64,000 nucleotides of DNA from Alphaproteobacteria bacterium (GCA_016124955.1 WGMR01000007.1:32840-96839); one strand, 5' to 3'; positions 8,999 to 25,400 are shown, numbered from the stretch's first letter. The notes: generated from the sequence alone by a model not told the origin. Program-made: numbers and translations.

Positions 8999-9071
8999 CC
9001 GAACGGGGCAGGATTTATTGCGCCTGCCCGGCAAAGGGCCGCGGGGCGCACACCACCAAGGGAGAAGAACC

Positions 9072-10409
9072 ATGTCGCTCTTTGCCGCTCTTACCGTCGC
9101 CGTGAACGGCCTCAACGCGCAGTCAAGCGCGATCGGTAACATTTCGGATAACCTCGCCAACACCCAGACGGTTGGCTACAAGCGCGTGGATACGACCTTC
9201 CAGGCGCTGATCACCAACTCGAACGCGCAGGTCAACGATCCGGGCGGCGTGCGCGCCACCCCGAAATACCAGAACTCGCTGCAAGGCAACCTCGTCGCCT
9301 CGCAAAGTTCGACCGCGCTCGCCATCACCGGCAACGGCTTTTTCGCGGTGCGTCAGGGTGTCGTCGGCTCCGACGGTCTGACAACCTTCTCCGACACCAA
9401 CTTCTTCACCCGCCGCGGCGACTATTCGCTGAACAAGGACGGCTACCTCGTGAACGGCGCCGGCTACTACCTGACCGGCTACAGCGTTGACGATACGGGC
9501 GTGGTCAACACCGCCGCCGCCAACCCGATTCAGATTTCGGCCCTTTTGGATAACCCGGTCGCGACTTCGTCGGCCAACTATGTGGCCAACCTGCCCGCCG
9601 GCAAGGATACGGCCTATGCGACATCGCCTTCCACCATTCAGCTGTTCGACAACCTTGGTAACCCGCGCGACATGACCTTCACCTGGACCAAGGTGGGCGA
9701 CTCTTCGACCAACTCCTGGTCGTTGCAGGTCGATGTGCCGGGCGGCGTCAGCGCCTCGTCCGATTTCTCGGTCACCATTCCGTTTAACTTCGACAGTTCG
9801 GGTTCCACCGCCGGTACGCTTTCGGCCTATAGCGTCAGCACCGGCGCGGGCATCGTGGCCGGTTCCGATTACACCGTGACCAACCCGGGCACCGGCGCCG
9901 ACGCCAAAGTGAGCTTCAGTCTGAACTTCGCCGGCGCGGGCGCGCAGACCATCTCGATCGATTTCGGCGACTACCAGACCGCATCCGGCCTGACCCAGTT
10001 CGCGGACGAAAACCTTTCGGTGACCACCTTCGAACAGAACGGCATTCCGCGCGGTTCGTTCCAATCGCTTTCGGTCGATAAGAACGGCTTCCTGGTGCTG
10101 AACTACGATAACGGCCGGTCCAAGACCTTCTATCAGATCCCGATCGTGCAATTCTTCGCCACCGACAGCTTGCAACGCGTCGAAGGCGGCGCTTTCGCCA
10201 AGACCATCGATTCGGGCACGCCGCGCTTCAGCGCTGCGGGCAAGGTCGGCGCCGGCACCATCGTCGGCAACTCGCTGGAAGGCTCCAACGTGGATATCGC
10301 CGACGAATTTACAAAGATGATCCAGTCGCAGCGTGTCTATTCGGCCAATGCGCGGACCATCACCACCACCAACTCGATGCTGGAAGAAGTCATCAACATC
10401 GTCCGCTAA
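9072..10409 (+). CDS. flgE: flagellar hook protein FlgE
   Basis: N-terminus MSLFAALTVAVNGLNAQSSAIGNISDNLANTQTVGYK and C-terminal conserved rod/hook segment (SNVDIADEFTKMIQSQRVYSANA); good RBS. Confidence 0.9.
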   Translation: MSLFAALTVAVNGLNAQSSAIGNISDNLANTQTVGYKRVDTTFQALITNSNAQVNDPGGVRATPKYQNSLQGNLVASQSSTALAITGNGFFAVRQGVVGSDGLTTFSDTNFFTRRGDYSLNKDGYLVNGAGYYLTGYSVDDTGVVNTAAANPIQISALLDNPVATSSANYVANLPAGKDTAYATSPSTIQLFDNLGNPRDMTFTWTKVGDSSTNSWSLQVDVPGGVSASSDFSVTIPFNFDSSGSTAGTLSAYSVSTGAGIVAGSDYTVTNPGTGADAKVSFSLNFAGAGAQTISIDFGDYQTASGLTQFADENLSVTTFEQNGIPRGSFQSLSVDKNGFLVLNYDNGRSKTFYQIPIVQFFATDSLQRVEGGAFAKTIDSGTPRFSAAGKVGAGTIVGNSLEGSNVDIADEFTKMIQSQRVYSANARTITTTNSMLEEVINIVR

Positions 10410-10470: not shown

Positions 10471-11874
10471 ATGTCGCTGGTTTCCGCGCTCAACAATTCT
10501 CTGAATTCGCTGCAGGTGATCCAGAAAAACATCTCGGTCATCTCCAACAATATTTCGAATGCGAATACGGACGGCTACACCCGCAAAAGCGCGGTGCAGG
10601 AATCGGTGCTGCTCGGCGCCGATTTCGGCGGCGCGCGTATCGCCGGCTATATGCGCGTCACCAACGACGTGGTTGGCCGCTCGTGGCTCGATTCGCTGTC
10701 CGATAGCGGCTATGCCGGCACCCGCAGCGATTATCTTGCCCAGATCGGCCAGCTTTTCGGCACCAATATCGACAACCCCGTGCTTTCCAGCGCGATCGAA
10801 AATTTTGCTTCGGCCTGGCGCGAACTTGAAGCCGAACCCGAAGATCCGACCCGTCAGCGCACCGTGGTGCAGCGCGGCAAGGAGCTGGCGGCCGAAATTC
10901 GCCGTCTTTCCGCAGGCGTCGAGGAAATGGACCGTTCGATCCGCCAGGATATCGAGGATACGGCGGTTGAGATCAACACCATTCTTACAAACGTCAAAGC
11001 GATCAACAACCAGATAGCCACTGCGCTTGGCCGCAATCAGCCCGTCGGCGATTATGAAGACCAGCGCGATCTTCAGATCCGCAAGCTGGCCACGCTGATG
11101 GACGTCAAGACCTTCGACCGCGGTAACGGCCAGATCGCGCTTTACACCGGCAACGGCTATTCGTTGCTCGACGGCGATGCGCGCAACTTTTCCTTCGACG
11201 GCACCGATCTGGTGCTGACCGGCAGCACCACGGCCGTGACCAGCTACCTGACCGGCGGCAAGATCGAAGCGCTTTATAACCTGCGCTATGACGGTTCCCC
11301 GGCCACCGCGAGCGGCGACGCCGGCACGGAAGTAATCCGCAAGCTGCGCGACCAGCTCGATGCCGTGGCGGCCGCGTTTCTTGATACCGCGACGCCAGGC
11401 ACTTTCGGCTATGCGTATGACAACGCCACGCTTGATGCCGGCGCCAGCCCGGCCGAACTGGACAACGATTTTTTCACCGGCAGCGGCCGCACCAATATCG
11501 ATATAGACGGCACGCTGTTCAACGGCACCACCGCCCTGAAGAAGAGCGCGGCGGGCGCGGTCGTGCTGGCCATGAACGACACGACCCGCACCTATTCGCT
11601 GGACGGGCTTTCGATTTCCAATGTCAGCTATTCCGGCCTGGTGTCCAACATCATCGCCTCGTTGCAGCAATCCGGTTCGATCACGAAGGAAGCGGCGCAA
11701 ATCGCCGAAGGGCAGGAAGTGTTCTACAAGGAACGCTACAACGACGATACCGGCGTGAATGTTGACCAGGAACTGGTGCAGCTGCAGATCATGCAAAACT
11801 CCTATAACGCCGCCGCGCGGCTGCTCTCGGTGATCGACGAGCTGTATCAGACATTGACCAATATAGGCAGGTAG
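10471..11874 (+). CDS. flgK: flagellar hook-associated protein 1 FlgK
   Basis: N-term MSLVSALNNSLNSLQVIQKNISVISNNISNANTDGYTRK and C-term NSYNAAARLLSVIDELYQTL typical of FlgK. Confidence 0.85.
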   Translation: MSLVSALNNSLNSLQVIQKNISVISNNISNANTDGYTRKSAVQESVLLGADFGGARIAGYMRVTNDVVGRSWLDSLSDSGYAGTRSDYLAQIGQLFGTNIDNPVLSSAIENFASAWRELEAEPEDPTRQRTVVQRGKELAAEIRRLSAGVEEMDRSIRQDIEDTAVEINTILTNVKAINNQIATALGRNQPVGDYEDQRDLQIRKLATLMDVKTFDRGNGQIALYTGNGYSLLDGDARNFSFDGTDLVLTGSTTAVTSYLTGGKIEALYNLRYDGSPATASGDAGTEVIRKLRDQLDAVAAAFLDTATPGTFGYAYDNATLDAGASPAELDNDFFTGSGRTNIDIDGTLFNGTTALKKSAAGAVVLAMNDTTRTYSLDGLSISNVSYSGLVSNIIASLQQSGSITKEAAQIAEGQEVFYKERYNDDTGVNVDQELVQLQIMQNSYNAAARLLSVIDELYQTLTNIGR

Positions 11875-11876
11875 CC

Positions 11877-12842
11877 ATGGCAGACGGCATTTCATCGCTC
11901 GGCATCCAGCTTCAGTCAAACCGGCTGATCCAGGGCAGCGCCAGCATTCTTTCCAAGCTTTCCGAACAGCTGGCGACCGGCGTCAAATCCTCGAACCTGT
12001 ACGATTATTCGACATCCGACGCGCGCAAGCTGCTGGATTTCCGCAACAGCATCACCCGGCACGAATCCTATGTCTCCGCCATCAAGGCGGTAAAGCCGCG
12101 CATGGAGCTGTATGATAAAACGCTGGCCGGCATGAGCGATACGGCCAACCAGATGCTCGCGCTCATCAACAACACGCAAAATTATACCGCCGCCCAGAAC
12201 GGCGCGGTGGCCGAACAGATTGCCGGCTTTGTCAACCAGGTCGAAGGCTATCTTAACGTCAAGATCGGCGACCGCTATCTTTACAGCAGCGAGCGCTATG
12301 GCACATCGCCCGCAGGCGATATTCTTTCGCTGGCGTTGCCGCCGGCAGAAACCTACCCCGTGACGACGCCCACGCTGCCGCCCTGGGACAGCGAACGCAT
12401 TGGCGGCACGGCAACCAACGTATCCGGCTGGACCCAGCTTTCGACCACGATTGATGACAGCCTTTCGGTTACCTACGGCATTCGCAATGTCGAAGCCGGC
12501 ATTCAGGAGCTGGTGCAGGGTTTGCGCTGGGCCTATGCCGCCACGCAGGACCAGGCCAACTTCGACACCTATATGGCCAATGCCCGCAGCGAGCTGGCGT
12601 CGGCGCTTCCCGATTTGCGCCAGTTGCAGAGCCGCGTGGCCTCCAACACCTCGACGCTGGACCAGACGCGCGAACTGCACGAAAAAGTGATCTCCGACAT
12701 CAAAGACAACATTCAGGATATCCAGTATGTTGATATCAACGAGGTCGCGACCAAAGTAAGTTTCTATCAGACCCAGCTGCAGGCATCCTATGCCGTGACC
12801 GCGCAGCTCGCCAGTCTGACCATCCTTGGTTACTTCAGGTAA
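11877..12842 (+). CDS. flgL: flagellar hook-associated protein 3 FlgL
   Basis: Flagellin-like N- and C-terminal helices; position immediately after flgK. Confidence 0.8.
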   Translation: MADGISSLGIQLQSNRLIQGSASILSKLSEQLATGVKSSNLYDYSTSDARKLLDFRNSITRHESYVSAIKAVKPRMELYDKTLAGMSDTANQMLALINNTQNYTAAQNGAVAEQIAGFVNQVEGYLNVKIGDRYLYSSERYGTSPAGDILSLALPPAETYPVTTPTLPPWDSERIGGTATNVSGWTQLSTTIDDSLSVTYGIRNVEAGIQELVQGLRWAYAATQDQANFDTYMANARSELASALPDLRQLQSRVASNTSTLDQTRELHEKVISDIKDNIQDIQYVDINEVATKVSFYQTQLQASYAVTAQLASLTILGYFR

Positions 12843-12865: not shown

Positions 12866-14371
12866 GTGAAGGAATCGCTTGATCTCGGCCCCGTGGAACT
12901 TTCCTATGCCGCCGCGCTCCGCGGCGTGCAACCGCGCGTGCCGGGCCAGGCCTTCACCTATGCCCGTTTCTGCGCCGGCGCGGCCGAAGACATGCTGTGC
13001 CTTGCCGCCAGCAACCCGGAAGGTAAATTCTTTTTCTTCCTGGAAGATGAAAACGAGGCCGCCGCCGCCCGCTCGCTCGCACAGCAAGGCGTGGTGACCA
13101 ATGCCGCGATCGCCGCCGGCCACCCGGCGGGCGTTTTGGAACAGCAGCAGGGCGCGACGCCGCCGCTTCCCAGGCTCGATTACCTTTGCTGCGACGATAC
13201 CGCGCTTTCGCTGACCGATGCGGACCGCGAGGCGCTGTTTACGCTTTCTGCCGCCACGCTCGGTCCGCAGGGGCTGTTCGCATGCCGCTACCGGCCCTTC
13301 GCGCGGCAGGACGAATCGCTGCGCTACCTGATCAATGTGCTCGAACCCTTGCTGGAAGAGAGCCAGAAAATGGAATTCGTACAGGAGCTGCAGGCATTGG
13401 GCGGGCGCTATTTCGCCCGCGTGCCCGCCGCGCGCGCCCTGCTTGATAAGGCGCTGGCCGAAGGCAAGCCCGAGCATCTGCTGGAATCCGCGACCGGAGC
13501 GGTTGTGAGCGCGACCATGGGCACGATGCAGGCGCTTTTGCCGCGCCAGATGATGTATGTGGGCGATGCAAGCATCGCGAGCAACTATATGGATCTTTCG
13601 ACCCCGGAAGCGGCGCACGCGCTTTTGCTGAAAATGAAAGACAGCGTGATGTACGAACCGGCCAAGGATTTCGCGGCCGACCGCAGCAGCCGGACCGATA
13701 TCTGGTGCCCGCTTGCGGCCGCGCTGACCGGCAACCCTGCCGCGCTGTTTAACGGCTTTTTCTTCGGCAGCCCGGCGCCGGGCGACGCGATCCCGCCGCG
13801 CATTACCGTCAACGGCAGAACATACGATCTGACCACGCCGCTGCATGCCAGGCTGATCAAGCTGATGCGGATCATGCCGATTACGATCGGCGATTTCCTG
13901 CATCATGAAGACAGCCGCGATGCGGCAGGGCAGCTTTTCGCGCCGATGGATGTGGTCGCGGCGGTGCATCTTCTGGTTGCGCTCGGCGTCGCCACGCCGA
14001 TGCGCGCGACCTATACCGGCTATACGGATGCCGATTATGGCCGCCCCTGCCTTGCCGGCCCCTTCAACCGCGCCTTCTGGCGCGACGGGACCGGAGCCCG
14101 CGCCCGCCTCGCGGCTTCGACCGTAACCGGGCGCGCGATCCGCATGGATGCGCGCGAAGCGCTTGTTTTACAGGCGCTGACGGCGGGCGGGTTCGAAGGT
14201 TCGGCCCATGTGCTTTTGCCGGCCTTGCAAAAGCTGGCAAGCGACCCGACGCAAAGCATGGCCGTGCTGGGCGGGCAGATGCCGGACGAAGATGTCGCCG
14301 CCAACCTTATATCGGACGTGTGCGAACGCGATCTTGTGGGTTGGTACGCCTTCGGCGTGCTGGCAGCCTGA
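12866..14371 (+). CDS. hypothetical protein (501 aa) co-operonic with flgEKL; possibly a degenerate methyltransferase-like fold
   Basis: GTG start with AGGGAGA SD; no recognisable catalytic motifs; tight spacing to flgL (23 bp) and to the downstream TPR-GT gene (57 bp). Confidence 0.5.
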   Translation: MKESLDLGPVELSYAAALRGVQPRVPGQAFTYARFCAGAAEDMLCLAASNPEGKFFFFLEDENEAAAARSLAQQGVVTNAAIAAGHPAGVLEQQQGATPPLPRLDYLCCDDTALSLTDADREALFTLSAATLGPQGLFACRYRPFARQDESLRYLINVLEPLLEESQKMEFVQELQALGGRYFARVPAARALLDKALAEGKPEHLLESATGAVVSATMGTMQALLPRQMMYVGDASIASNYMDLSTPEAAHALLLKMKDSVMYEPAKDFAADRSSRTDIWCPLAAALTGNPAALFNGFFFGSPAPGDAIPPRITVNGRTYDLTTPLHARLIKLMRIMPITIGDFLHHEDSRDAAGQLFAPMDVVAAVHLLVALGVATPMRATYTGYTDADYGRPCLAGPFNRAFWRDGTGARARLAASTVTGRAIRMDAREALVLQALTAGGFEGSAHVLLPALQKLASDPTQSMAVLGGQMPDEDVAANLISDVCERDLVGWYAFGVLAA

Positions 14372-14428: not shown

Positions 14429-16054
14429 ATGGCAAAACCGGCGGTACAGCAACAACTTGAACAGGCGATGGCGCGGCACCGCGGCGGCGATCTTGGCGGC
14501 GCCGCCGGGCTTTACCAGCAAATATTGCAAACCGAGCCGGATAACGCCGATGCGTTGCACCTGCTTGGCGTGGTGGCGCGGCAAACCGGCAAGCACGCGC
14601 TGGCGCGCGAGCTGATCGACCGGTCGCTGGCCATCAATCCGCGCAACCCCGCCGCGCTTGCCAACAAGGCGCTGACGCTGCGCGAACAAAAAGATTATGC
14701 GGCCGCGATCGATGCCGCGCGGGCCGCGCTTGCGATCGACCCCGAGCATGCCGAAGCCTTCAGCAACCTTGCGGGGGCGCAATTTGCCCAGGGGCAGTAT
14801 GCGCTGGCGGCCGATACCTATCGTGCCGCGCTGCGCAGCCACCCGCGCGACGGCAATTTGTTGCAGGCGCTGGCGGCGGCGCTGGTCAAGACCGGCGAGC
14901 TGGCTGAAGCGCACGGTGCGATCAAACGCGCGCTGGCGGTTATGCCCGGCAATGCGCGTTGTTTCAATACGCTCGGTAATGTTTTGCGCGATGCCGGGCG
15001 TATCGAAGAAGCGATCGAAGCCTGGCGGCAGGCGCAGGCGGCTGACCCAGCGCATCAGCCCGCGCGCGTGAGCGAAGCGATGGCGCATATGCTGCTTGGC
15101 AGTTTTGCCGCCGGTTTGCCTTTATACGAAGCGCGCGGCGTGCCAGACCCGCGCTATGATGGCTTGCCGTTCTGGGACGGCGGTGCGCTGGACGGAAAAA
15201 CCATATTGTTGCGGGCCGAACAGGGTTTCGGCGATACGCTGCAGTTCATTCGCTATGTGCCGGAATTTTCCGCGCGCGCCGCCGCCGCCGGCGGGAAGCT
15301 GGCGGTGGAAGTGCAGGCGGCGCTGCTTGATATATGCCGGCCGCTGGCGCCGCAGGCGACATGGCTTTCGCCGCGCGATGCGTTGCCGCAGGTTAATGCG
15401 CAATACAGGTTGCTAAGCCTGCCGCTTTTGTTTGCCGCGAAGACAGGCAACATTCCCGCGCACACGCCTTATTTGGCGAGCGATGCGAACCGGCGCGCGG
15501 CGTGGAAAGAAAAACTTGCGGCGCGGCCGGGGCCGCAGATCGCGCTTACCTGGGCCGGCAACCCCGGCCATTTGAACGATCATAACCGTTCGCTGCAGCT
15601 GGAAACGCTTGCGCCGCTGCTGGACCGCTTCGCGCCGCATATTCTGCTTTTGCAGAAGGGTTTCGATACAAAAGATATGCTGGCGCGCTGGCCCGCACTT
15701 TCGGATGCGGGCAAGGAATGCGCCGATTTTTCCGACACGGCCGCTTTGCTCGATTGTTGCGATTTGCTGGTCGCGGTCGATACCGCGCCTGTGCATCTGG
15801 CGGGCGCGCTGGCGCGCCCGGCCTGGGTGCTTTTGCCTTATTGCCCCGATTGGCGCTGGATGCGCGGGCGCACGGACAGCCCTTGGTATCCGGGCATGCG
15901 GCTGTTCCGGCAGCGCGCACCGCGCGACTGGAGCGTTGTTATGGCGGATGTAACGGGTGAGCTTGAGAAGTTTGTGGGCGGCGACAGAAGCGTGCTCGCC
16001 CCGCCCGCGGGAGCGGCGCTGCAGGATGCGCCGCCGCCCGCCGGGCTAGGCTAA
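14429..16054 (+). CDS. TPR-repeat protein fused to GT9-like (heptosyltransferase-fold) glycosyltransferase domain; FlmG/FlbA-like putative flagellin glycosyltransferase
   Basis: N-terminal TPR repeats; C-terminal GFGDTLQF and VDTAPVHLAGALARPAWVLLP motifs typical of GT9; located beside flaF-flbT-flagellin. Confidence 0.6.
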   Translation: MAKPAVQQQLEQAMARHRGGDLGGAAGLYQQILQTEPDNADALHLLGVVARQTGKHALARELIDRSLAINPRNPAALANKALTLREQKDYAAAIDAARAALAIDPEHAEAFSNLAGAQFAQGQYALAADTYRAALRSHPRDGNLLQALAAALVKTGELAEAHGAIKRALAVMPGNARCFNTLGNVLRDAGRIEEAIEAWRQAQAADPAHQPARVSEAMAHMLLGSFAAGLPLYEARGVPDPRYDGLPFWDGGALDGKTILLRAEQGFGDTLQFIRYVPEFSARAAAAGGKLAVEVQAALLDICRPLAPQATWLSPRDALPQVNAQYRLLSLPLLFAAKTGNIPAHTPYLASDANRRAAWKEKLAARPGPQIALTWAGNPGHLNDHNRSLQLETLAPLLDRFAPHILLLQKGFDTKDMLARWPALSDAGKECADFSDTAALLDCCDLLVAVDTAPVHLAGALARPAWVLLPYCPDWRWMRGRTDSPWYPGMRLFRQRAPRDWSVVMADVTGELEKFVGGDRSVLAPPAGAALQDAPPPAGLG

Positions 16055-16057
16055 AGC

Positions 16058-16501
16058 TTAGATCGAGGTCGAGACCGAACCCGGCTGCGTCTTTTCGGCC
16101 ACCGGAACGGCGTGCGCCTCGGTTTCCGGCTTGCCCGTCTGGACATTCAGGCCCGCCGCGATCTGGCGGTTGATGTCGATCAGGCTGGTGAGCAAGGCGG
16201 GGCTGTATTCCGCTTGCGCGCGCAAGGATACCTTATCGACGAAGCGGCTGAGGTTCAGCAACGTGATCTTCAGATCGCGCGGCAGGGGGTTATCGGGTTC
16301 GCACAGCGTGACCTGGAACACGGTCCAGAGCTGCTGGTTGTGGCGAATGGCGTCGAGATAAAACTCGGGCCCGCTTTCCGGGTTTTGCGCCTTGTGGAGG
16401 CGGCTGGCGCAGCTAAGCAACGCCTTGGCTTCCGTTTCGCGCACCGTTTCATTGACCTGCTGATGAGCTTTGTACGAACTGACTGGTGATTTGGTTACCA
16501 T
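16058..16501 (-). CDS. flaF: flagellar biosynthesis regulator FlaF
   Basis: Small helical protein directly downstream of flbT on same strand, canonical flbT-flaF pair. Confidence 0.65.
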   Translation of the reverse strand: MVTKSPVSSYKAHQQVNETVRETEAKALLSCASRLHKAQNPESGPEFYLDAIRHNQQLWTVFQVTLCEPDNPLPRDLKITLLNLSRFVDKVSLRAQAEYSPALLTSLIDINRQIAAGLNVQTGKPETEAHAVPVAEKTQPGSVSTSI

Positions 16502-16540
16502 GATACTGCCTCCTGCACTGTGTTGTTATGGGTTATAATT

Positions 16541-16993
16541 TTACGCAACCGGTACCGGTGATGCTTCTTGCGCGCCGGTTTGCACCGCGGCGCCTTCGCC
16601 TTCCGGCTTGGCTTTCGCGGCTTCGTGATCGGCGAGCAATTTGTGACCAAGGCGCAGTGCCTTGAAGGATTCGCCGCTTTGCAGCAAGCGGGTGATTTCC
16701 ACCACCTGATCCCTGAGATGGGGATGAAGCGCACAGAATTTTTCGATTGTCTCGATCACCAGCGCATCGAGCGGCTGGCCCTTGCCCTTGAACAGGTAGA
16801 TCACCTGCAGAAGGAAATAGACCGATGCGGCATCGGATTCTTCGCTGCGATCGATGTTCATGAGATAGTTGTCGCGCAGCACCGGGCTGTCGGACAGGAT
16901 GAGAAGATCGGCCGGGCGCGTGCCTACGTTTTTGAGGACGGCGCCGCCGGCGAAAATCTTTTGTTCGGGTTTTACGCGGATCTTGAGGGGCAT
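16541..16993 (-). CDS. flbT: flagellin translational repressor FlbT
   Basis: N-terminus MPLKIRVKPEQKIFAGGAVLKN matches FlbT family start (MPLKI...NGAV); adjacent to flagellin gene. Confidence 0.75.
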   Translation of the reverse strand: MPLKIRVKPEQKIFAGGAVLKNVGTRPADLLILSDSPVLRDNYLMNIDRSEESDAASVYFLLQVIYLFKGKGQPLDALVIETIEKFCALHPHLRDQVVEITRLLQSGESFKALRLGHKLLADHEAAKAKPEGEGAAVQTGAQEASPVPVA

Positions 16994-17081
16994 GTCTCGA
17001 CTCCTTCGAGAAGTTTTTCCGGGCCATCATGGCCGCGGGTTTCTTAAAACCAAGTAAATCACCAGCACTTTTCCGGAAGTA

Positions 17082-17107
17082 GGAGGACGGGGTTTCCCCC
17101 GTCCTCC
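17082..17107. terminator. GC-rich hairpin between flagellin gene and flbT (possible partial terminator/attenuator)
   Basis: GGAGGACGGGG-TTT-CCCCCGTCCTCC, 11-bp perfect stem; no strong U-tract on either strand. Confidence 0.3.
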
Positions 17108-17118
17108 CTTTACCAGTA

Positions 17119-17934
17119 TTAGAACAACCGCAGAATGGCCTGTGACTGCTGGCCGGAAATACCCAGCGCAACGACACCCAACTGCTGACGGGCCTGGAGG
17201 GCCTGCAGGTTGGCGCCTTCTTCGTTGAGATCGGCCAGGATGAGGTTATCCGAAGCCGTCTGCAGCGAGTTGATCAGCGAGTCAGTAAAGTCTTGACGCG
17301 TCTGAATCACCGACACCGCGTTACCAAAGCTGGACGCAAAGGTACGAAGGGTCGCCAGTGCGGTCGACAGAGCCGAAGCAGCGGTATTGATGCTGTTATC
17401 TGTCGAGAAGTTGCTGGTGGCAGCGGCGATCGAGAGACCGGTCGTCGAAGCGTCCACGCCAGAAACCGTCAGGGTGCTGGAGTTGTCTTCGTTGAAGTTC
17501 ACGGTCAGGTCGTCACTGTCCAACAGGTTCGTACCGTTGAACACAGCGTCGTTGACCAGCGCGTCGATCTGGGTGCGGAGGTCGTTGAACTGTGTCGCGT
17601 AGGCCGAACGGGTCGCCGTATCGGATGTCTGCAGGGCCGAGGTGGTAAGACCTTGCGCCTGTTCGACGATCTTGGTGATGCTGTCGATCGCGTTGGAAGC
17701 GGCTTTCACCGTTTGCAGGTTGCTCGACAGGTTTTCTTTAACGCGGCTAAGATCGTTTGCGCGGTTGAGGAAGCTTTGGCTTGCGAAGAAGGCCGTAGCG
17801 TTATCAATCGCGGTGTTGACCTTAAGGCCGGTCGAGAGACGCTCCTGGGTGATACCCAGCAGCTTCGAGGTATTCTGCAGGGCGAGCAAGTTGCTGCGCG
17901 CTGACAGAGAGAGGGAGACGTCAGAAATAGCCAT
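17119..17934 (-). CDS. flagellin (short, about 271 aa, alphaproteobacterial type)
   Basis: N-term MAISDVSLSLSARSNLLALQNTSKLLGITQERLSTGLKVNTAIDNATAFFASQ and C-term LQALQARQQLGVVALGISGQQSQAILRLF flagellin helices. Confidence 0.9.
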   Translation of the reverse strand: MAISDVSLSLSARSNLLALQNTSKLLGITQERLSTGLKVNTAIDNATAFFASQSFLNRANDLSRVKENLSSNLQTVKAASNAIDSITKIVEQAQGLTTSALQTSDTATRSAYATQFNDLRTQIDALVNDAVFNGTNLLDSDDLTVNFNEDNSSTLTVSGVDASTTGLSIAAATSNFSTDNSINTAASALSTALATLRTFASSFGNAVSVIQTRQDFTDSLINSLQTASDNLILADLNEEGANLQALQARQQLGVVALGISGQQSQAILRLF

Positions 17935-18046
17935 AGTATGTAACTCCTTGTCCTAAGGTTGGATGAGCGCGGACTCCTTCCGCGGGTTAGTGTTCGTAAA
18001 GTAACTCACAAACGTGAAGTTAACTTTAACGATACGCGTATGATGA

Positions 18047-18062
18047 TGCGAAAAATGTGCCA
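18047..18062 (-). promoter_or_regulatory. sigma54 (-24/-12) promoter candidate for flagellin gene
   Basis: Minus-strand reading TGGCAC-ATTTT-TCGCA (GG and GC at correct spacing), about 110 bp upstream of flagellin ATG. Confidence 0.5.
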
Positions 18063-18104
18063 CATCGCGCGCATGATATTTTTCAAACGCTTGGCGGCGC
18101 GCAC

Positions 18105-18187
18105 CGGGAAATTCCTGCCGCATGCGGATCTTTCTGCCGGGCAAAATTTGCCGCATGGGGAAATTATTGCCTGCTTGCACGATGCGG
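18105..18187. promoter_or_regulatory. three imperfect direct repeats upstream of the flagellin promoter, ftr-like enhancer candidates
   Basis: Repeats cgggaaattcctgccgcatgcgg / ccgggcaaaatttgccgcatgggg / ggggaaattattgcctgcttgcacgatgcgg; the middle one contains the palindrome GGCAAAATTTGCC. They lie 50-130 bp upstream of the sigma54 -24 element. Confidence 0.4.
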
Positions 18188-18539
18188 TTTTGTTTTTGCG
18201 CGCCTGGCGTGCGCGAAAACCGGAAAAACAGGCGTGCCGCAAAATGCGACGAAAAACGGAACGAAGAACAAAAAAATATAAGCAAGGGAATCAAGCGGCT
18301 GGCGCTGAAAAGCCCGCGACGCGGGCTAATTGAAAAAAAAGTGCTTGTCAAGTGAAATATGATGTGTTATGGTGTTCAGTGACTCGAAGAAGAATTCGAG
18401 TCGGGTGTTAATATAAGCACTTGATATATAAGAATTTTAACGCTGCCTAATTGCCGATTTGACCTAAAGCTAATGGGTCACCCTGGTGGGGATACCGGGA
18501 GTATGTGGGAGGCAAGGCGGCCGTACAGTGGGGATAAAC

Positions 18540-18872
18540 ATGTTGGAACCGGTAAACTCAATTGGGAGTAGCGGTGCCTATGGCGGCAGACTTTCTGCCG
18601 CTACGGTAGGCGCGGGCTTCGAGCAGAGCGGGTCGATTAAAGCGGCCACGCCGAGCGAAGCTATTTCGCCGCGTATCAAGGCTGACCCGGTCGCAGGCGT
18701 GATCGTTCAGTTCCTTGACTCGAAGGGCGAAGTGCAAGTGCAAACACCTTCGGTCGCCACGGTCGCCTATTTGAAGGCCGGCCTGACCTCGGAAGGCGGC
18801 GTGCGCAGCGAAACCCAGCTTCCTTCGGTCGATGCCGAAGCGGCCGCCGCAGAAATTGAAGTAACAGCCTAA
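18540..18872 (+). CDS. flaG: flagellar protein FlaG
   Basis: About 110 aa; motif VIVQFLDSKGEVQVQTPSV resembles the FlaG-family core (V.F.D..TGE.I.QIP). Confidence 0.6.
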   Translation: MLEPVNSIGSSGAYGGRLSAATVGAGFEQSGSIKAATPSEAISPRIKADPVAGVIVQFLDSKGEVQVQTPSVATVAYLKAGLTSEGGVRSETQLPSVDAEAAAAEIEVTA

Positions 18873-18895
18873 AGGCATCTGCCCCGTTTTTCGGT

Positions 18896-18920
18896 GCGGC
18901 CGCCTGCGGGCGGTTTTTTT
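18896..18920 (+). terminator. rho-independent terminator after flaG
   Basis: CCGCC-TGCG-GGCGG stem followed by TTTTTTT. Confidence 0.5.
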
Positions 18921-18989
18921 GTGCCTGAAATTTGCCCTTCATTTCCATAAACCCGGCGGATCCGCGCCGCACGCGAACACATTGCGGGC

Positions 18990-20540
18990 ATGAAACCCGG
19001 CCGGTATGATCGGGCGATGCCGCTTCAGCACCCAACCGCCATCCAGGATCATGCCTCCGCGCTTGCGCAAGCGCGCGCGCAGCTGCAGGCCGGCGATGCG
19101 GCGGCCGCGCTGAAAACGCTGGACGATGCCCGCCGCGCCAGCCCGCAAAGCCCCGAAATATTGTTCATGATGGCCAACATCATGAACAATATGGGGCAAA
19201 GCGAGGGCGCGGTTCTGTTATACCGTCAGTTGCTTGGCCTGCGCCCGCGCGACCCGGGCATTTTGAACAATCTTGCCGGCGCCTTGCACGAGCTTGGCCG
19301 GCTGGATGAGGCAGACACCTATATAAGGGAGGCGCTGGCGTTGCGCGCCGACATGCCGGATTTGTGGGTAACGCAGGCGACGATCGACGATGTGCGCGGC
19401 CGCCGCGCCGAAGCGGAAACAAGCCTGCGCCGCGCGCTGGCGGCGCGCGGCGATCACCCGGTGGCGCTTGCCAACCTTGCCGCGCTGCTTTCGGCCCGTG
19501 GCGCGTATGACGAAGCGGAAAGAATGCGCGGGGCTGCGCGCGCGCAATTGGGCGACCGGCCGCGCCTGCTGGTGGCGCAGGCGAACGATTTCTTCCGCGC
19601 CGGGCGGCTTGGCGCGGCCTGGCCGCTTTACGAGGCGCGCTTTGCCGCTGCGCCCGGCGAACCGGCCATGGTAGCGGCGCGCGGTTTCGCGCAGCCCCGC
19701 TGGCGGGGCGAGAAGACCGGCGGGGCGCTGCTTGTGTGGGCCGAACAGGGTATCGGCGAAGAGATTATGTATGGCGCGCTTTTGCCCGAAGCGGCCGGGC
19801 GTTGCGCCCGGCTTGTCGCGGAATGCGATGCGCGGCTGGTTGAAATTTTTGCGCGGTCATTTCCGGGCGTGCAATGCATTGCGCGGCGCAGCCCGGCGGA
19901 CCCGCCCGACCCGCGCTGCGCCGCGGGCGACATTGCGGCGCAAATTCCGTTCGCCAGTCTTGGCGGCATTTTCCGCAACGGCGAAAAAGATTTTCCGCGC
20001 CACGAAGGTTATCTGAAGGCCGATGCGCCGCGCGCCGCCGCCCTTCGTGCCGATTATGCGGCACAGGCGGGGGAGGGGAAGACGCTGGTCGGCATTTCGT
20101 GGCGTTCAAAGCCGTATAAATACAGCGATCCGAAAAGCTCCGACCTGCAAGATTGGGAGGCGCTTTTGCGCGCGCCCGGCATCGTGTGCGTCAGTTTACA
20201 GTATGGCGATTGTAAAGCCGAACTGGAAGCCGCGCGCGCCGCGGGCGCGACAGTGCTGCATGACGATGCGATCGATCCGCTGCGCGACATGGATGCTTTC
20301 ATGGCGCAGGCGGCGGCGATGGACCGGATTGTGACGGTCAGCAACGCGACCGCGCATGTGGCGGGCGCGCTTGGCAAAACGGCGGATGTGCTTGTGCCGC
20401 ATGGCGGTGCCGCCCCGCCGCACTGGCAGGCCGAACGCGGCGATAGCCCGTGGTACCCGGCCTTGACGCTTTGGCGGCAGGACGCGCCGGGCGCGTGGCG
20501 CGGGCTTGTCGAACGAATTGCGGAAAATATGGCGCGGTGA
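18990..20540 (+). CDS. second TPR + GT9-like glycosyltransferase paralog (FlmG/FlbA-like)
   Basis: TPR repeats N-terminal; C-terminal GIGEEIMYGALL and SNATAHVAGALGKTADVLVP plus SPWYP motifs parallel to the 14429..16054 protein. Confidence 0.6.
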   Translation: MKPGRYDRAMPLQHPTAIQDHASALAQARAQLQAGDAAAALKTLDDARRASPQSPEILFMMANIMNNMGQSEGAVLLYRQLLGLRPRDPGILNNLAGALHELGRLDEADTYIREALALRADMPDLWVTQATIDDVRGRRAEAETSLRRALAARGDHPVALANLAALLSARGAYDEAERMRGAARAQLGDRPRLLVAQANDFFRAGRLGAAWPLYEARFAAAPGEPAMVAARGFAQPRWRGEKTGGALLVWAEQGIGEEIMYGALLPEAAGRCARLVAECDARLVEIFARSFPGVQCIARRSPADPPDPRCAAGDIAAQIPFASLGGIFRNGEKDFPRHEGYLKADAPRAAALRADYAAQAGEGKTLVGISWRSKPYKYSDPKSSDLQDWEALLRAPGIVCVSLQYGDCKAELEAARAAGATVLHDDAIDPLRDMDAFMAQAAAMDRIVTVSNATAHVAGALGKTADVLVPHGGAAPPHWQAERGDSPWYPALTLWRQDAPGAWRGLVERIAENMAR

Positions 20541-20552
20541 CGGGCGCGGCGT

Positions 20553-21392
20553 TTATGTGCCCGCCGGCATATCCATTTTCGGGGCGGGCTTGTTTTGCGG
20601 CGCGGCCTTGTCATCGCCCATGGGAATGAAATCAAGCTCCTTTTGCAAGCCGAGTTCGCGCACCGCATCGCGCAGCGCTTGCAATGTCTGGCGGTCAAGT
20701 TCCATCGCGCGGGTCAGGCGGGTCGCAACGATTTCTTCGGGCGTTTTCTGAACCGGCGGCGGCGGCGCGGCGGCGGGCGCGCATTGTGCCGCGCTGGCTT
20801 GCTGCATCAGCGCAGGTTTTTGCGCGGGTTTCTGCGCCGCGCCTTCCTTGTTTTCCGCACCCGCCTTTTCAGGCGCACCGGTATAAATCGGCGGCATGCT
20901 GCTAAGACGGACGAAGGCGCGCTCCTTCGGCACAATCACCTTGCTGGCTACCTTGCTGGCATCATGCCAGTTGTAGGGATCGAGCTGCCCCGGGACGACC
21001 GAGGCATTTTCTTTTTCATTGAAGGTTGAAAACACGCGGAAATCTTCTTCGTCAGCGGCTTCCGCGGCCTCTTCGCCGGTCTTGTCTTCGGGTGGCAGGC
21101 TGCTGATCACGCGTTGCCAGCTTGGCGGCGGGGGCGGGTTGATGCGTTCGATGACCGCCTGCATTGCAGGCGCGGGCGCGGCTTCGCCTTCTGCTGCCGT
21201 GCCTTCGCTTTCCGCAACGTCCGGCGCTTCAAGCGCATCGAAATCGACGGCATCAATATCCTTCCAGCCGCTGTTGATCGCACCGAAAGGATCAATGTCT
21301 GCGGCCCCGGCGTGCGGCGGCATGGCAAGCATCAGCATCGCGCCCAGAAGAAGCGTGCCACGAAGCGGTATTTTTTTGTTCAGCGCCTGCAT
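20553..21392 (-). CDS. secreted Pro/Ala/Glu-rich hypothetical protein
   Basis: Signal peptide MQALNKKIPLRGTLLLGAMLMLAMPPHAGA then low-complexity acidic/Pro-rich sequence; start chosen at internal ATG preceding the signal peptide. Confidence 0.45.
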   Translation of the reverse strand: MQALNKKIPLRGTLLLGAMLMLAMPPHAGAADIDPFGAINSGWKDIDAVDFDALEAPDVAESEGTAAEGEAAPAPAMQAVIERINPPPPPSWQRVISSLPPEDKTGEEAAEAADEEDFRVFSTFNEKENASVVPGQLDPYNWHDASKVASKVIVPKERAFVRLSSMPPIYTGAPEKAGAENKEGAAQKPAQKPALMQQASAAQCAPAAAPPPPVQKTPEEIVATRLTRAMELDRQTLQALRDAVRELGLQKELDFIPMGDDKAAPQNKPAPKMDMPAGT

Positions 21393-21859
21393 ATATCCTG
21401 CCCTGTGCCCTGCGGCTGTGCCGCAGTTCCGGTAGTCTTTTCCACCTTTCATCTTAACCTTGAGGCGCTAAGAAAGACTGAAAAATGCCAACAATCTTAT
21501 ATAGTTGAATGGGTTAGCATGGTTATCGGGGCCGCCGTATTTACGAAAAATTTATCATAATCGCCGTCCGCCCTTTTGTTTAAAGCCATACGAATCTTTG
21601 CAGAGTCAAAGGCTTGGTGGAAAAACCGGCTTCTTTTGCATGTTGCGGGGCGAGCGTTAACACAATTGCTACCATTTAAAAATATTGTAGCTGAACGGTA
21701 AAACGCCGCGCGACCGGCACCCCGTTATGGGGTTGTAGCCTGCGCTCATTGGGGATTGTTTCGTATCCGTGATTTGGTGTAAAACCGTACACGGGTGTTT
21801 TGGTGGTAACTTGATAAGGAAAGACTGTCGTGTCCCGTTTCGATTCTCCTGGTAGCGCC

Positions 21860-22464: not shown

Positions 22465-25400
22465 TTATTCCACGCTGATGCGCGCGGCTTCGCTGCGTGC
22501 CAGTATTGCGCCGGTTTCGCCATCGCTGACATTGGCGGCGGGCCAGCTATAGCCGCCCTTGCGCGCCGCGCGCACCAGATAGGCGAAGTGAAAATCCCGC
22601 CCTTGCAGCGGCGCGAGCTTTGCGGTGGCAGCGCCGGCGCCTGCCGCCGAAGCGATCTGCGCCGACAGATGCGGCATCCATCTGAACTGTCCCGATTGCG
22701 CGCCTTCCGCCAGCGGCAAACCGGCGGGCGCGAGCCCGCGCGGCAAGGCATCCTTGATGACAAGCGTTGTGCCCTGCGGCGGGCGCGTAAACGTGCCGTC
22801 GATAAGAACGACATAGGCCGCGCCGTTTTCTAGCTTGGCGGCGCGCGCCAGCATGCCGCCATCGATCCTGAACAGCCGCCGCGCGATACGCACGCCGTCT
22901 TTCGCGGGCGCGCGTTTGCCGGTTGCGGGTACAAGCGCGCAAGCGTGCAGAGCCCGCGTGCCGCGATTGGCAAGCGCAAGCGGGCCGTCTTTTCCGCCAT
23001 AACCGAGCAGGCGCAGGCCCGCGACCCTGTCGGGTTCGCCGCCGCCGGTCGCATATTCCCAAACGCCGGCGCGGCGCAAAAGCCGCATGAACAAGGCGGC
23101 CAGCCGCGCGCGCGTAATATCGCCGGTTTGTGCGGGGTCGATACGCGGGCCAAGTTCATCCCACAGCGGCAACAGTTCGTTGTTGGCGGTATCGTCATCG
23201 CCCGAAAGCAAGGCAACGGTGGCCAGCGCGGCATGAGGGTGATCGCGCAACAAAGAAGGCATTTGCGCCAGCGCGCGCGTGCGGTATTCGCTCGCTTCCG
23301 AAGCCGCGCCGCCCCGTGCGAGCGCGAAGGCAATTTGCGCTTCGGCCGGCGCCATGCGCGCGGCATTGCCGAAATTGCTGATAAAATAATGCAAAGCGCT
23401 GTTCCATGCGGCGGGCGGCACGGCTTCGGGCGACTGTGCCAGCGCGTAGAAGGCAAGCGCGCGCGCTTCCAGTTCGCGCTCCACTTCCCAGTTCTGATCG
23501 AGCCGTTTGATGACCCAGTCCGCCGCTTGCCGCGCCAGCACCGGCGGCGCCGCAGGGTTTTCCGCCATTGCCATCAGGGCGCCCGCCGTGGCGGCAAGGT
23601 CGCTTTCCCGTCCGTGCGGCGAAACCGCGAAACCGCCATCGCCCTGCTGGCGCTGCAGCAGCGATGCCGTCAGCTGTGCGCGCCTGCGTTCGATCACCGT
23701 GCGCGTGTACGGCAAATCCCCCGGCAGCCCGGCCGCAAGCCGCAACGCGACGATAATTTCGGCCATATCCTGCGTCGCCGCCGCATTCAGGCGCGGCAGG
23801 CCGGCGAGGATGGAAAGAAAGGGCGCGCCGCCAACGGACGAAAGCGCGATTTTCAGCGTGTCCGGCGCTTTGCCCGCTTTTTCCATGCCTTGCAATTTTC
23901 CGTGCAAGCTTTTCGCCGCCGCCGCGTTCGCGTTTTCGCCCGGCCCTATGGGCGGCAGGCAATATTGCTCCATGGCTTGCGCGGGCGCGGCGCCAGAAAT
24001 GACCGCGGGCTTCTTCGCGTCCGTATCTTCCAAAGGTTTCGCGGCCAGCATGGCATGCGCGTTCACTTCCTGCACCGCATCGCCGTTCTGCACGATGGCA
24101 TAGAAAAGCGTTGCGCCCGCGCTATCCGGCAGCCGGATTTGCGCGGCGGCGATGCCGGCACGATCGGTGCGCACAACTGCGCTGGCGGTGCTTCCGGCAC
24201 GGGCGGCCGGGGGAAAGGCCGCGCTTTTACCGGTTGTTTCGGCTTGTGCGGGCGAAAACACAAAACCATCGCTATCGCGCAAGGCAACGCGCACGGGCGC
24301 CGGGCGCTGCCACGCATCGCTTATGGGCGCAAAGCGCGTCGTTTCGCTGCGGGCCAGCGGCACGGCAACGATACGGACGGCGGTTTGTTCGCCGTTATCG
24401 GTGACGTTTACGGGAATGGCGGCGGTCCCGTCCGCGCGCATATCTTCGGGCAGCGCCAGGGTGACGGTTTCGGTCGCGGCGCTGAGCGGGAACCAAGCCG
24501 TGCCTTCGGCGCGGCGGGCCTCGCCGTCGTTTACGCCGGTTTGCTCGGTCGCGACCGCAAGAACATTGACGCCGCGCCGCCAATCCGCGCCGCTGGCAAC
24601 CTCGATGAACGCGCCGTCTTCGCCCACGGTGCGATCGATCACCTGCCGTACTTTATTATCGGCCAGCACAAGCATCACGCGTGCGGGCCAAGGCGGCGCC
24701 ACGAACAGCCAGCCCTTGTCGCCCGGCCGCAACGCCTGTTCCATGACGCTGAGCTTGACCTTGCCCGCCGCCAGGCTTTGCTTGCTTTCAAGCCACCAGC
24801 CGGCGCTGAAACGCAGCGCGCTCATGCTCGCCCGGCCTTCGCTGAAGACATCGAGCCGGTAGTGGCCCGCATGCACCGGAAGTTCAAGCCCCGTCTGCAT
24901 GCCGCCCGCGCCGCCGAGCTTGCCGCGCGCGATGAACAGATCGTGCGGCGCGGCGCGGTATTGCCACTGGCCTTCATGCTGGTACCAGGTAAAATGTTGC
25001 TGTTCTTCGACCAGTTCGTAGGTCAGCGCGGGCAGCGGGATACGCCGCCCGGCGGCGTCGGCGGCGATAAGGGTAAAACCGGCGAGCGCGTTTTCAGGCA
25101 CCGCATGGCCCGGAAAGGCCGGGATAATGCCGATCGCGACCGGCTGCGGGATGCGGGAAAGTGCCAACGGCGCGTTCGTTTCCGCCGCCTGCAGCGGCGG
25201 CGCGAGCCGCGCGGCGATAACGGCTTCCATCGGCGTGTGCGCCGCTTCGGGCGCGGGCGGCAGTTTTACGGCGACTTGCGCCGCGCCCTGCGCGTCGGTC
25301 GTGAAGGATGCGACCGGAACGGGTTCGGTTCCGCCTGCGGCGTAAATGCCGTATTCGGCCGCCTCGGCCGGCGTGCCTGCCTGCACGGCCGCGAAAGGCT

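What the first reader, a model, noticed from the sequence alone, without database searches (positions are those of the whole stretch)
14429..20540. Two paralogous TPR-GT9-like proteins bracket the flaF-flbT-flagellin-flaG unit
Both proteins combine N-terminal TPR repeats with a C-terminal domain carrying heptosyltransferase (GT9) hallmarks: GFGDTLQF / GIGEEIMYG and DTAPVHLAGAL / SNATAHVAGALG followed by SPWYP. This TPR + GT architecture matches what is known of the Caulobacter flagellin glycosyltransferase FlmG. Two divergent copies flanking a single flagellin gene suggest either two sequential sugar additions or one catalytic copy plus one regulatory copy. A GT9 (LPS-heptosyltransferase) fold acting on a protein substrate is unusual.
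Basis: partly seen in the sequence, partly recalled or inferred. Interest (0 to 1): 0.6.

Follow-up and report, generated by a model that had tools for sequence, protein, structure and literature searches.

The report
Two FlmG-like flagellar glycosyltransferases flank flagellin
Two distantly related genes on either side of the flagellin gene encode relatives of FlmG, the Caulobacter enzyme that attaches sugars to flagellin; this extends a known enzyme class to a new bacterial group and adds a second, uncharacterised sister type.

Summary
Proteins A (14429-16054) and B (18990-20540) are true paralogs: 28% identity, E 6e-28, and E 9e-63 between profiles of their C-terminal domains. Both combine N-terminal TPR repeats with a two-lobed Rossmann domain, and they bracket flaF-flbT-flagellin.

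I recovered Caulobacter FlmG, a 596-aa gene beside flbT, and compared it directly. B matches it along its whole length (30% identity, E 6e-42). B also shares the motifs NLQYGDC and SN-A-T with it and groups with it in a tree. A matches FlmG more weakly (25%, E 1e-20). A belongs to a larger sister family that keeps the Asp-Thr motif of family-9 glycosyltransferases (GT9).

The sequence link to GT9 covers only about 42 columns around that motif. Both proteins keep nearly all residues conserved in their own families, so neither looks like a dead copy.

A always follows a roughly 500-aa degenerate methyltransferase-like gene in the order flgE-flgK-flgL-X-A (6 of 6 loci). B-like genes are mostly not next to flagellar genes elsewhere.

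The donor sugar and the substrate are untested. This is a known kind of system in a new two-enzyme variant, of moderate interest.

The parts
10471..12842 (+). flgK (10471-11874) and flgL (11877-12842), which follow flgE (8982-10409). They are the upstream part of the conserved order flgE-flgK-flgL-X-A.
   Evidence: ORFs. Pfam hit for FlgE. The same gene order is seen in L086, L169 and L170.
12866..14371 (+). X501, a 501-aa degenerate methyltransferase-like protein. It is the conserved gene immediately upstream of A.
   Evidence: The only Pfam hit is PF10119, E 5.6e-9. Distant homologs (23-28% identity over residues 6-450) carry intact class I methyltransferase domains. In the X family the GxGxG motif reads CAGAAED or similar. 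X sits next to an A-type gene in L001, L168, L086, L169 and L170.
14429..16054 (+). Protein A, 541 aa. It has about 7 TPR repeats (residues 1-234) followed by a GT-B-like C-terminal domain (about 235-520). It belongs to the sister family of FlmG that keeps the GT9-type Asp-Thr motif.
   Evidence: Pfam TPR hits and PF01075 at 22.8 bits. AlphaFold2 pLDDT 93.6. 25% identity to FlmG, E 1e-20. Tree and motifs.
15233..15235 (+). Codon for A Asp269, in the motif EQGFGD. It is the proposed equivalent of the WaaC Asp13 catalytic base.
   Evidence: Invariant in alignments A1 and A3. It follows the first strand of the N-terminal lobe in the model. It aligns to WaaC G12-D13 only in a low-confidence alternative alignment.
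15779..15784 (+). Codons for A Asp451-Thr452, in the motif VDTAPVHLAGA. They are equivalent to WaaC Asp261-Thr262.
   Evidence: hhalign of the A family against E. coli GT9 proteins, probability 95.5%, E 1.4e-8. The PDB profile search aligns the same stretch to HepI.
16058..16501 (-). flaF
   Evidence: PF07309, E 6.2e-27.
16541..16993 (-). flbT
   Evidence: PF07378, E 1.6e-16.
17119..17934 (-). Flagellin, 271 aa, the presumed acceptor. It is 33% identical to Caulobacter FljK, and 30% of residues 120-200 are Ser or Thr.
   Evidence: Pfam Flagellin_N and Flagellin_C. tblastn and composition.
18486..18872 (+). Small conserved ORF, 128 aa (110 aa from the ATG at 18540).
   Evidence: No Pfam hit at E<=5. 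Homolog in L001 at 58% identity. A terminator-like hairpin lies at 18898-18915.
18990..20540 (+). Protein B, 516 aa. It has about 6 TPR repeats (residues 21-218) followed by a GT-B-like C-terminal domain. It is the FlmG-type paralog.
   Evidence: Pfam TPR hits. AlphaFold2 pLDDT 94.3. 30% identity to FlmG, E 6e-42. It groups with FlmG and shares EQGxG[DE]E, NLQYGDC and SN[AT]T.
19758..19760 (+). Codon for B Glu257, in the motif EQGIGE. This position is acidic (Asp or Glu) across the B family and FlmG.
   Evidence: The extended hhalign places it opposite WaaC G12-D13.
20340..20345 (+). Codons for B Ser451-Asn452, in the motif VSNATAH. They replace the GT9 Asp-Thr, as in FlmG (FSNATIN).

Best explanation
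Both genes encode soluble cytoplasmic protein O-glycosyltransferases of the FlmG type. The N-terminal TPR superhelix captures a flagellar axial protein before export. The C-terminal GT-B domain then transfers a nucleotide-activated sugar onto Ser or Thr residues.

B is the FlmG-class enzyme. It sits head to head with the flagellin gene and most likely glycosylates flagellin. Its Ser-Asn motif, shared with FlmG (which transfers pseudaminic or legionaminic acid), may mark use of an acidic nonulosonic-acid donor.

A belongs to a sister family that keeps the GT9-type Asp-Thr motif. It is encoded downstream of flgE-flgK-flgL and the degenerate methyltransferase-like protein X501. A probably adds a different, neutral sugar to flagellin or to another axial protein, possibly with X501 as a non-catalytic partner.

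What is shown: homology to FlmG, the predicted fold, retention of conserved residues, and conserved gene order. What is inferred: the acceptors, the donor sugars, the division of labour between A and B, and any role for X501.
For: FlmG was identified independently. L008:5919-7709(-) is a 596-aa ORF next to flbT and flaF, followed by a GNAT acetyltransferase gene. This matches the published 596-residue FlmG (CCNA_01524), which lies beside flmH.

FlmG aligns with B at 30% identity, E 6e-42, and with A at 25% identity, E 1e-20, across both the TPR and C-terminal regions. In a neighbour-joining tree of C-terminal domains, FlmG groups with the B family, separate from the A family, and each group has its own diagnostic motifs.

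The AlphaFold2 models are confident (pLDDT 93.6 and 94.3) and show a TPR solenoid followed by two Rossmann-like lobes. The nearest solved structures are SPINDLY and OGT, which are TPR plus GT-B protein O-glycosyltransferases (E 5e-14 and 4e-13).

Neither protein is degenerate: A matches 61 of 63 and B matches 33 of 34 highly conserved C-terminal-domain columns.

Gene order is conserved. L001 has A-flaF-flbT-flagellin...B. L126 has flaF-flbT-flagellin facing a B-like gene. L002 has a B-like gene beside six flagellin genes, flbT and flaF. The pair X-A lies next to flgEKL and/or flaF-flbT-flagellin in L168, L086, L169 and L170. An A-like gene lies beside flgE/K/L/flaF in Azospirillum tabaci.

Experiments published on FlmG show that the TPR domain binds flagellins and that the GT domain sets the Pse or Leg donor.
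Against: There is no biochemical or mass-spectrometry evidence for this organism.

The window holds no Pse or Leg biosynthesis genes, and the rest of the genome could not be examined.

Most B-like genes elsewhere are not next to flagellar genes: only 3 of 80 metagenome loci, and 2 of 36 loci of at least 8 kb, have flagellar neighbours. Many form tandem arrays. P0143, P0150 and P0005 have non-flagellar neighbours, so family membership alone does not specify flagellin as the substrate.

FlmG is sister to the whole sampled B family rather than nested beside B, so strict orthology is unproven.

A's linkage is to flgEKL as much as to flagellin. The link between the Ser-Asn motif and an acidic donor is my inference only.
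Confidence: 0.6

Rival explanations
1. Only B acts on flagellin. A, together with X501, modifies a different flagellar protein (hook FlgE or the junction proteins FlgK and FlgL) or has another flagellum-assembly role. On this reading the two proteins are not sequential enzymes on one substrate.
For: A is found downstream of flgE-flgK-flgL-X in the window, L086, L169 and L170. In the last three loci no flagellin gene follows. B-like genes face the flagellin gene in the window, L001 and L126 and lie beside flagellin genes in L002.
Against: In L168 and L001, A lies directly beside flaF-flbT-flagellin, and L168 shows no B gene in the sequence available. No glycosylation of alphaproteobacterial FlgK, FlgL or FlgE was brought in here. 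TPR specificity cannot be read from sequence.
Confidence: 0.2
2. Neither protein glycosylates flagellar proteins. They belong to a very large, general-purpose TPR-glycosyltransferase family acting on other proteins or glycans, and their position in the flagellar cluster is incidental.
For: The A-type C-terminal domain has more than 1900 homologs across many phyla. 77 of 80 B-like metagenome loci show no flagellar genes, and many are multi-copy arrays. Non-flagellar neighbourhoods were seen for P0005, P0143, P0150 and the third paralog P0124.
Against: The adjacency is kept across relatives down to 40-58% identity in at least eight independent loci. The one experimentally characterised family member, FlmG, is a flagellin glycosyltransferase encoded in the same position beside flbT.
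Confidence: 0.12
3. One copy is catalytically inactive and serves as a flagellin-binding regulator or chaperone.
For: B lacks the GT9 Asp-Thr motif, having Ser-Asn instead, and has no PF01075 hit.
Against: Ser-Asn is the family-wide state of the B and FlmG lineage, and FlmG is sufficient for glycosylation in heterologous hosts. Both proteins keep nearly all conserved positions of their families.
Confidence: 0.08

Closest known systems
FlmG flagellin O-glycosyltransferase of Caulobacter crescentus and Brevundimonas subvibrioides (PMC7591256; bioRxiv 10.1101/2022.03.25.485807)
   Same: Both have an N-terminal TPR region and a C-terminal GT-B domain. There is full-length sequence homology: B 30% identity, E 6e-42; A 25% identity, E 1e-20. 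The gene lies beside flbT-flaF-flagellin. B shares the motifs EQGxG[DE]E, NLQYGDC, SN[AT]T and PWYP with FlmG.
   Different: The organism is an unclassified alphaproteobacterial genome assembled from a metagenome. It is not shown to belong to Caulobacterales, the order to which FlmG was said to be confined. There are two divergent paralogs at one locus instead of one. A carries Asp-Thr where FlmG has Ser-Asn, and it travels with a degenerate methyltransferase-like gene. There is no adjacent flmH-like acetyltransferase, and no Pse or Leg genes are visible in the window. FlmG has His replaced by Asn in the motif, whereas B keeps His.
GT9 ADP-heptose:LPS heptosyltransferases WaaC/HepI and WaaF/HepII (PF01075; PDB 2GT1, 2H1H, 1PSW)
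   Same: The C-terminal nucleotide-sugar motif hh-V-D-T-x-x-x-H-L-A-x-A-L-x-x-P aligns. Both are GT-B with two Rossmann lobes. A Gly-Asp follows the first strand of the N-terminal lobe.
   Different: Similarity is detectable over only about 42 columns. The acceptor is presumed to be a protein rather than lipid A-Kdo. A TPR domain is fused to the N-terminus. The B and FlmG lineage has Ser-Asn instead of Asp-Thr, and B has no PF01075 hit.
GT41 protein O-glycosyltransferases OGT and SPINDLY (PDB 7Y4I, 8DTF, 3PE4)
   Same: These are the best structural matches to both full-length models (Foldseek E 5e-14 and 4e-13, TM about 0.4). They have the same layout: a TPR superhelix that presents protein substrates to a GT-B domain.
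   Different: Neither A nor B hits any GT41 Pfam model (PF13844 is not listed). RMSD is high (12-15 Å), and the score is driven largely by the TPR region. The catalytic domain here is much smaller and lacks the intervening domain.
Maf flagellin glycosyltransferases (Campylobacter, Aeromonas, Magnetospirillum, Shewanella Maf-1 and Maf-2 with GlfM)
   Same: They do the same job: cytoplasmic O-glycosylation of flagellin before export. Two enzymes per flagellin locus and an accessory adaptor protein occur in Shewanella.
   Different: Maf enzymes have a GT-A (MAF_flag10) catalytic domain and are unrelated in sequence and fold.

Membership tests
FlmG-class flagellin glycosyltransferase | Two-domain layout: N-terminal TPR region and C-terminal GT-B-type domain | tested here: met
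   Pfam TPR hits for both proteins. The AlphaFold2 models show 12-14 TPR helices followed by two alpha/beta lobes, pLDDT 94.
FlmG-class flagellin glycosyltransferase | Significant full-length sequence homology to C. crescentus/vibrioides FlmG (596 aa) | tested here: met
   B matches at E 6e-42, 30% identity over FlmG residues 98-587. A matches at E 1e-20, 25% identity over residues 82-593.
FlmG-class flagellin glycosyltransferase | Falls in the same C-terminal-domain lineage as FlmG (motifs NLQYGDC and SN[AT]T) | tested here: met
   Met for B only. A falls in the sister family, with SLQKG and VDTA, so for A this feature is not met.
FlmG-class flagellin glycosyltransferase | Gene encoded beside flbT, flaF and flagellin genes | tested here: met
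   Seen in the window. Conserved in L001, L002, L126 and L168 and in about 35-40 Caulobacter loci.
FlmG-class flagellin glycosyltransferase | [quoted passage not shown] | not testable with these tools
   Needs two-hybrid or pull-down assays and reconstitution, as was done for FlmG.
FlmG-class flagellin glycosyltransferase | Uses CMP-pseudaminic or CMP-legionaminic acid, with the genome encoding the matching pathway | tested here: inconclusive
   No PseI, LegI or NeuB-type genes among the window ORFs scanned.
GT9 (PF01075, LPS heptosyltransferase family) | Match to PF01075 at or above the gathering score | tested here: inconclusive
   A scores 22.8 bits against a cut-off of 22, on residues 434-464 only. 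B has no hit. Many A-family homologs carry a precomputed PF01075 hit.
GT9 (PF01075, LPS heptosyltransferase family) | Profile-level homology to WaaC/WaaF/WaaQ/WaaU across the domain | tested here: inconclusive
   Probability is 95.5% for the A family and 83.6% for the B family, but over only 42-43 columns. The PDB profile search ranks HepI and HepII first but at E about 0.3.
GT9 (PF01075, LPS heptosyltransferase family) | Conserved Asp-Thr...His of the donor-binding motif (WaaC D261, T262, H266) | tested here: met
   Met for A (D451, T452, H456). Not met for B (S451, N452, with H456 kept) or for FlmG (S, N, and Asn in place of His).
GT9 (PF01075, LPS heptosyltransferase family) | Catalytic Asp after the first beta-strand (WaaC G12-D13) | tested here: inconclusive
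   A has G268-D269 and B has G256-E257 at the same topological place. They align to G12-D13 only in relaxed, low-confidence alignments.
GT41 (OGT/SPINDLY) | Sequence match to the GT41 catalytic domain (PF13844) | tested here: not met
   Neither A nor B hits any GT41 Pfam model (PF13844 is not listed). The only resemblance is structural and architectural.

The most novel reading that the evidence does not exclude
The conserved pair formed by the degenerate methyltransferase-like X501 and the A-type TPR-glycosyltransferase, encoded downstream of flgE-flgK-flgL, is a previously undescribed flagellar modification module. It would be distinct from FlmG and Maf. In this organism it would work alongside a FlmG-type enzyme, so that the filament or the hook-filament junction carries two chemically different glycans. 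The switch from Asp-Thr to Ser-Asn in the donor motif would mark the change from neutral to acidic (nonulosonic) sugar donors.
Probability: 0.3. Interest if true: 0.6.

Novelty: new variant of a known kind. Interest (0 to 1): 0.42.

Why it matters
FlmG is one of only two known classes of flagellin glycosyltransferase. A 2023 preprint described it as confined to Caulobacterales.

This locus shows FlmG-type genes at flagellin loci in an unclassified alphaproteobacterial genome not shown to be Caulobacterales. It pairs such a gene with a sister enzyme that has a different donor-binding motif and a conserved pseudo-enzyme partner.

If both enzymes are active, the locus offers a natural two-enzyme system for studying three questions: how TPR domains choose their protein acceptors, how a small change in the GT-B motif re-targets the donor sugar, and how flagellar surfaces are diversified.

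It also warns against annotation by family alone. The wider family is very large and mostly not flagellar.

Tried and rejected
- Single-sequence searches of both C-terminal domains against PDB sequences gave only chance hits.
- Looking up the window's GDP-mannose dehydratase to walk beyond the window end found nothing on record.
- I looked for a remnant of the extra GT4 gene of L001 in the 550-bp gap at 17935-18485 and found none.
- I tested the flaG label with a relaxed Pfam scan and got no hit.
- I considered that B's Ser-Asn substitution means loss of activity. I rejected this because FlmG, which is functional, has the same substitution.
- I considered GT41 membership because SPINDLY and OGT top the fold search. 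I rejected it because there is no sequence match to GT41.
- Promoter and terminator scans were uninformative: 14 terminator-like sites were found against 14.2 expected.
- Literature searches for TPR-GT9 flagellin enzymes, or for FlmG in Rhodospirillales, found nothing.


Full report
**What is in the sequence**

The window carries a large flagellar gene cluster of the alphaproteobacterial type. It includes flgE, flgK, flgL, flaF, flbT, flagellin, fliX, fliM, fliL, flgF/G/A/H/I/D and cheY/cheZ-like genes.

Inside the finding's coordinates are two plus-strand ORFs:
- A: 14429-16054, 541 aa.
- B: 18990-20540, 516 aa.

Between them, on the minus strand, lie flaF, flbT and a 271-aa flagellin. A small plus-strand ORF (18486-18872) precedes B.

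A and B are real paralogs. BLASTP gives 28% identity over almost the whole length, E 6e-28. Profiles of their C-terminal domains align with probability 100% and E 9e-63.

The flaG label for the small ORF is the only part of the observation I could not confirm. It has no Pfam match even at E<=5, although it is conserved in a relative.

**Fold and relation to GT9**

AlphaFold2 models built on family alignments are confident: pLDDT 93.6 for A and 94.3 for B. Each shows a TPR solenoid of 12-14 helices followed by two alpha/beta lobes.

The closest solved structures to either full-length model are SPINDLY and OGT, which are TPR plus GT-B protein O-glycosyltransferases (E 5e-14 and 4e-13, TM about 0.4). 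That ranking is helped by the TPR region, and neither protein hits any GT41 Pfam model.

At the sequence level the link to GT9 is real but narrow:
- A reaches PF01075 at 22.8 bits against a cut-off of 22, on 31 residues. B has no hit.
- Family profiles match a profile of E. coli WaaC, WaaF, WaaQ and WaaU with probability 95.5% (A family) and 83.6% (B family), over only 42-43 columns around the motif V-D-T-x-x-x-H-L-A-x-A.
- The only PDB sequences that the profiles pick out are HepI and HepII, at non-significant E about 0.3.
- The N-terminal Gly-Asp or Gly-Glu follows the first strand of the N-terminal lobe, as G12-D13 does in WaaC. It aligns to WaaC only under relaxed settings.

**Direct test against FlmG**

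The published FlmG is a 596-residue protein. Its TPR region is residues 1-313 and its GT-B-like domain is residues 309-596. It is encoded by CCNA_01524, next to flmH.

It matched Caulobacter vibrioides DSM 9893 at 95% identity and returned 78 Caulobacter flagellin loci.

In about 35-40 of these loci a homolog of A and B lies immediately beside flbT and flaF. In L008 it is a 596-aa ORF followed by a GNAT acetyltransferase gene, as expected for flmG-flmH.

This FlmG aligns along its whole length with B (30% identity, E 6e-42) and with A (25% identity, E 1e-20).

A neighbour-joining tree of 41 C-terminal domains puts FlmG together with the B family and apart from the A family. The motifs agree with the tree:

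| Lineage | Motifs |
|---|---|
| FlmG and B family | EQGxG[DE]E, SW[RK]S, NLQYGDC, SN[AT]T, PWYP |
| A family | EQGFGDT, WAGNPxHxNDRNRS, SLQKG, VDTA, DSPWYP |

So B is the FlmG-type enzyme. A is a member of a sister family that keeps the Asp-Thr of GT9.

Because FlmG is sufficient for flagellin glycosylation, B's Ser-Asn is not a sign of inactivity. Each protein also keeps nearly all positions that are at least 90% conserved in its family: A 61 of 63, B 33 of 34. This argues against the idea of one catalytic and one regulatory copy.

**Genomic context elsewhere**

The full arrangement recurs in the metagenome contig L001: A, flaF, flbT, flagellin, the small ORFs, B, then the 273-aa and cold-shock-domain genes. 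L001 has an extra GT4 gene inserted after the flagellin gene.

B-like genes face the flagellin gene or lie beside flagellin genes in two other loci:
- L126: flaF-flbT-flagellin, then the B-like gene.
- L002: six flagellin genes, flbT and flaF.

However, B-like genes are usually not flagellar. Only 3 of 80 metagenome loci have flagellar genes, and only 2 of the 36 loci of at least 8 kb. Many are tandem arrays of up to seven copies. P0143 and P0150 have unrelated neighbours.

A probable third, B-like paralog from the same assembly (P0124, MBI1273439.1) is also in a non-flagellar setting.

The A-type subclade is more consistently flagellar:
- L086, L169 and L170: flgE-flgK-flgL-X-A.
- L168: X-A-flaF-flbT-flagellin.
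- Azospirillum tabaci: an A-like gene beside flgE/K/L/flaF.

One more distant A-family member, P0005, is not flagellar, and the A-type C-terminal domain has more than 1900 homologs overall.

**The conserved partner X501**

The 501-aa gene directly upstream of A (12866-14371) accompanies an A-type gene in all six loci of the subclade that I examined. It belongs to a small family: 89 hits, or 33 cluster representatives at E<=1e-30.

More distant homologs, at 23-28% identity over residues 6-450, are intact class I SAM methyltransferases carrying the PF10119 domain. In the X501 family the GxGxG SAM-binding loop reads CAGAAED, GAMDAEE or similar, and the acidic residue after the second strand is not kept.

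X501 is therefore most likely a methyltransferase-derived pseudo-enzyme. Its role is unknown. A scaffold or adaptor role beside A is a guess, loosely parallel to GlfM with Maf-2.

**Mechanism proposed**

By homology with FlmG, the TPR domain of each protein would bind its flagellar protein substrate in the cytoplasm, and the GT-B domain would transfer a nucleotide-activated sugar to Ser or Thr before export.

The flagellin is a short Caulobacter-like one, 33% identical to FljK. Its central part is 30% Ser or Thr.

B, the FlmG-type enzyme, most likely acts on flagellin. A may add a second sugar to flagellin or may act on FlgK, FlgL or FlgE.

I suggest that replacing Asp-Thr with Ser-Asn accompanies the use of acidic nonulosonic-acid donors. 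This is inference only.

The window has no Pse or Leg genes. A cluster at 57-64 kb encodes ManC, GDP-mannose dehydratase, a sugar C-methyltransferase and a GT4-containing protein. It could supply a neutral GDP-sugar, but this is untested. In Caulobacter the Pse genes are scattered, so their absence from the window says little.

**Novelty and verdict**

FlmG-type enzymes have been known since 2020, so the kind is known. A GT9-like fold acting on protein already has precedents: FlmG itself, and the autotransporter heptosyltransferases cited in PMC7591256.

Three things are new relative to the papers I could read:
- FlmG-type genes at flagellin loci in an unclassified alphaproteobacterial genome. 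The class was said to be confined to Caulobacterales. I did not determine the order-level taxonomy of this assembly.
- Two divergent paralogs at one locus.
- The conserved X501 plus A-type module behind flgEKL, for which I found no literature.

Everything about substrates and sugars remains inference. I rate it a new variant of a known kind, of moderate interest.

Noticed in passing
window 12866-14371 (+); also L168:54-1550, L169:5691-7178, L170:10001-11497, L086:5765-7237: A roughly 500-aa gene lies immediately upstream of the A-type TPR-glycosyltransferase. It has only a weak PF10119 hit. Its distant homologs are intact SAM methyltransferases, but this family has lost the GxGxG loop, so it is a likely pseudo-methyltransferase. 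It forms a conserved flgE-flgK-flgL-X-A module.
   Followed up: partly
L132, L155, L089, L139 (metagenome contigs): B-like (Ser-Asn motif) TPR-glycosyltransferase genes form tandem arrays of 4 to 7 copies (7 copies within about 15 kb in L132). No flagellar genes were detected nearby. The function of these arrays is unknown.
   Followed up: no
P0124 (MBI1273439.1), locus L167:146-1651: This is a third, B-like paralog, 51% identical to B's C-terminal domain. Its NCBI accession is in the same numbering series as those of A and B, so it probably comes from the same genome. Its neighbours are an ABC-transporter ATPase and a short-chain dehydrogenase, not flagellar genes.
   Followed up: partly
L001:4402-5577 (-), compared with window 17935-18485: The closest relative has an extra GT4 glycosyltransferase gene between the flagellin gene and the small ORF. 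The window has only a 550-bp gap there, with no remnant of that gene by tblastn.
   Followed up: yes
It is conserved in L001 at 58% identity. A terminator-like hairpin (18898-18915) separates it from B.
   Followed up: partly
window 57328-63997 (-): A sugar-nucleotide cluster sits at the edge of the flagellar region. It encodes ManC (cut by the window end), GDP-mannose 4,6-dehydratase, a sugar C-methyltransferase and an 881-aa protein with a C-terminal GT4 domain. It could supply a 6-deoxy or C-methyl sugar for a flagellar or surface glycan.
   Followed up: no
window 20553-21452 (-) and L001:7860-8681: A 299-aa Pro/Ala-rich protein with no family match lies convergent with B. It is conserved in L001 at 38% identity and is followed in both loci by a protein with two cold-shock domains.
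   Followed up: no
window 22465-30170 (-): Directly downstream of the locus lie a 1417-aa ORF, which I read as alpha-2-macroglobulin-like but did not scan against Pfam, and a 1141-aa protein with a weak TPR hit.
   Followed up: no
L002:11617-13041 (-): A 474-aa protein with no Pfam match sits between the B-like gene and the six tandem flagellin genes in L002. A 654-aa TPR protein begins just after flaF at the locus end and could not be read.
   Followed up: no
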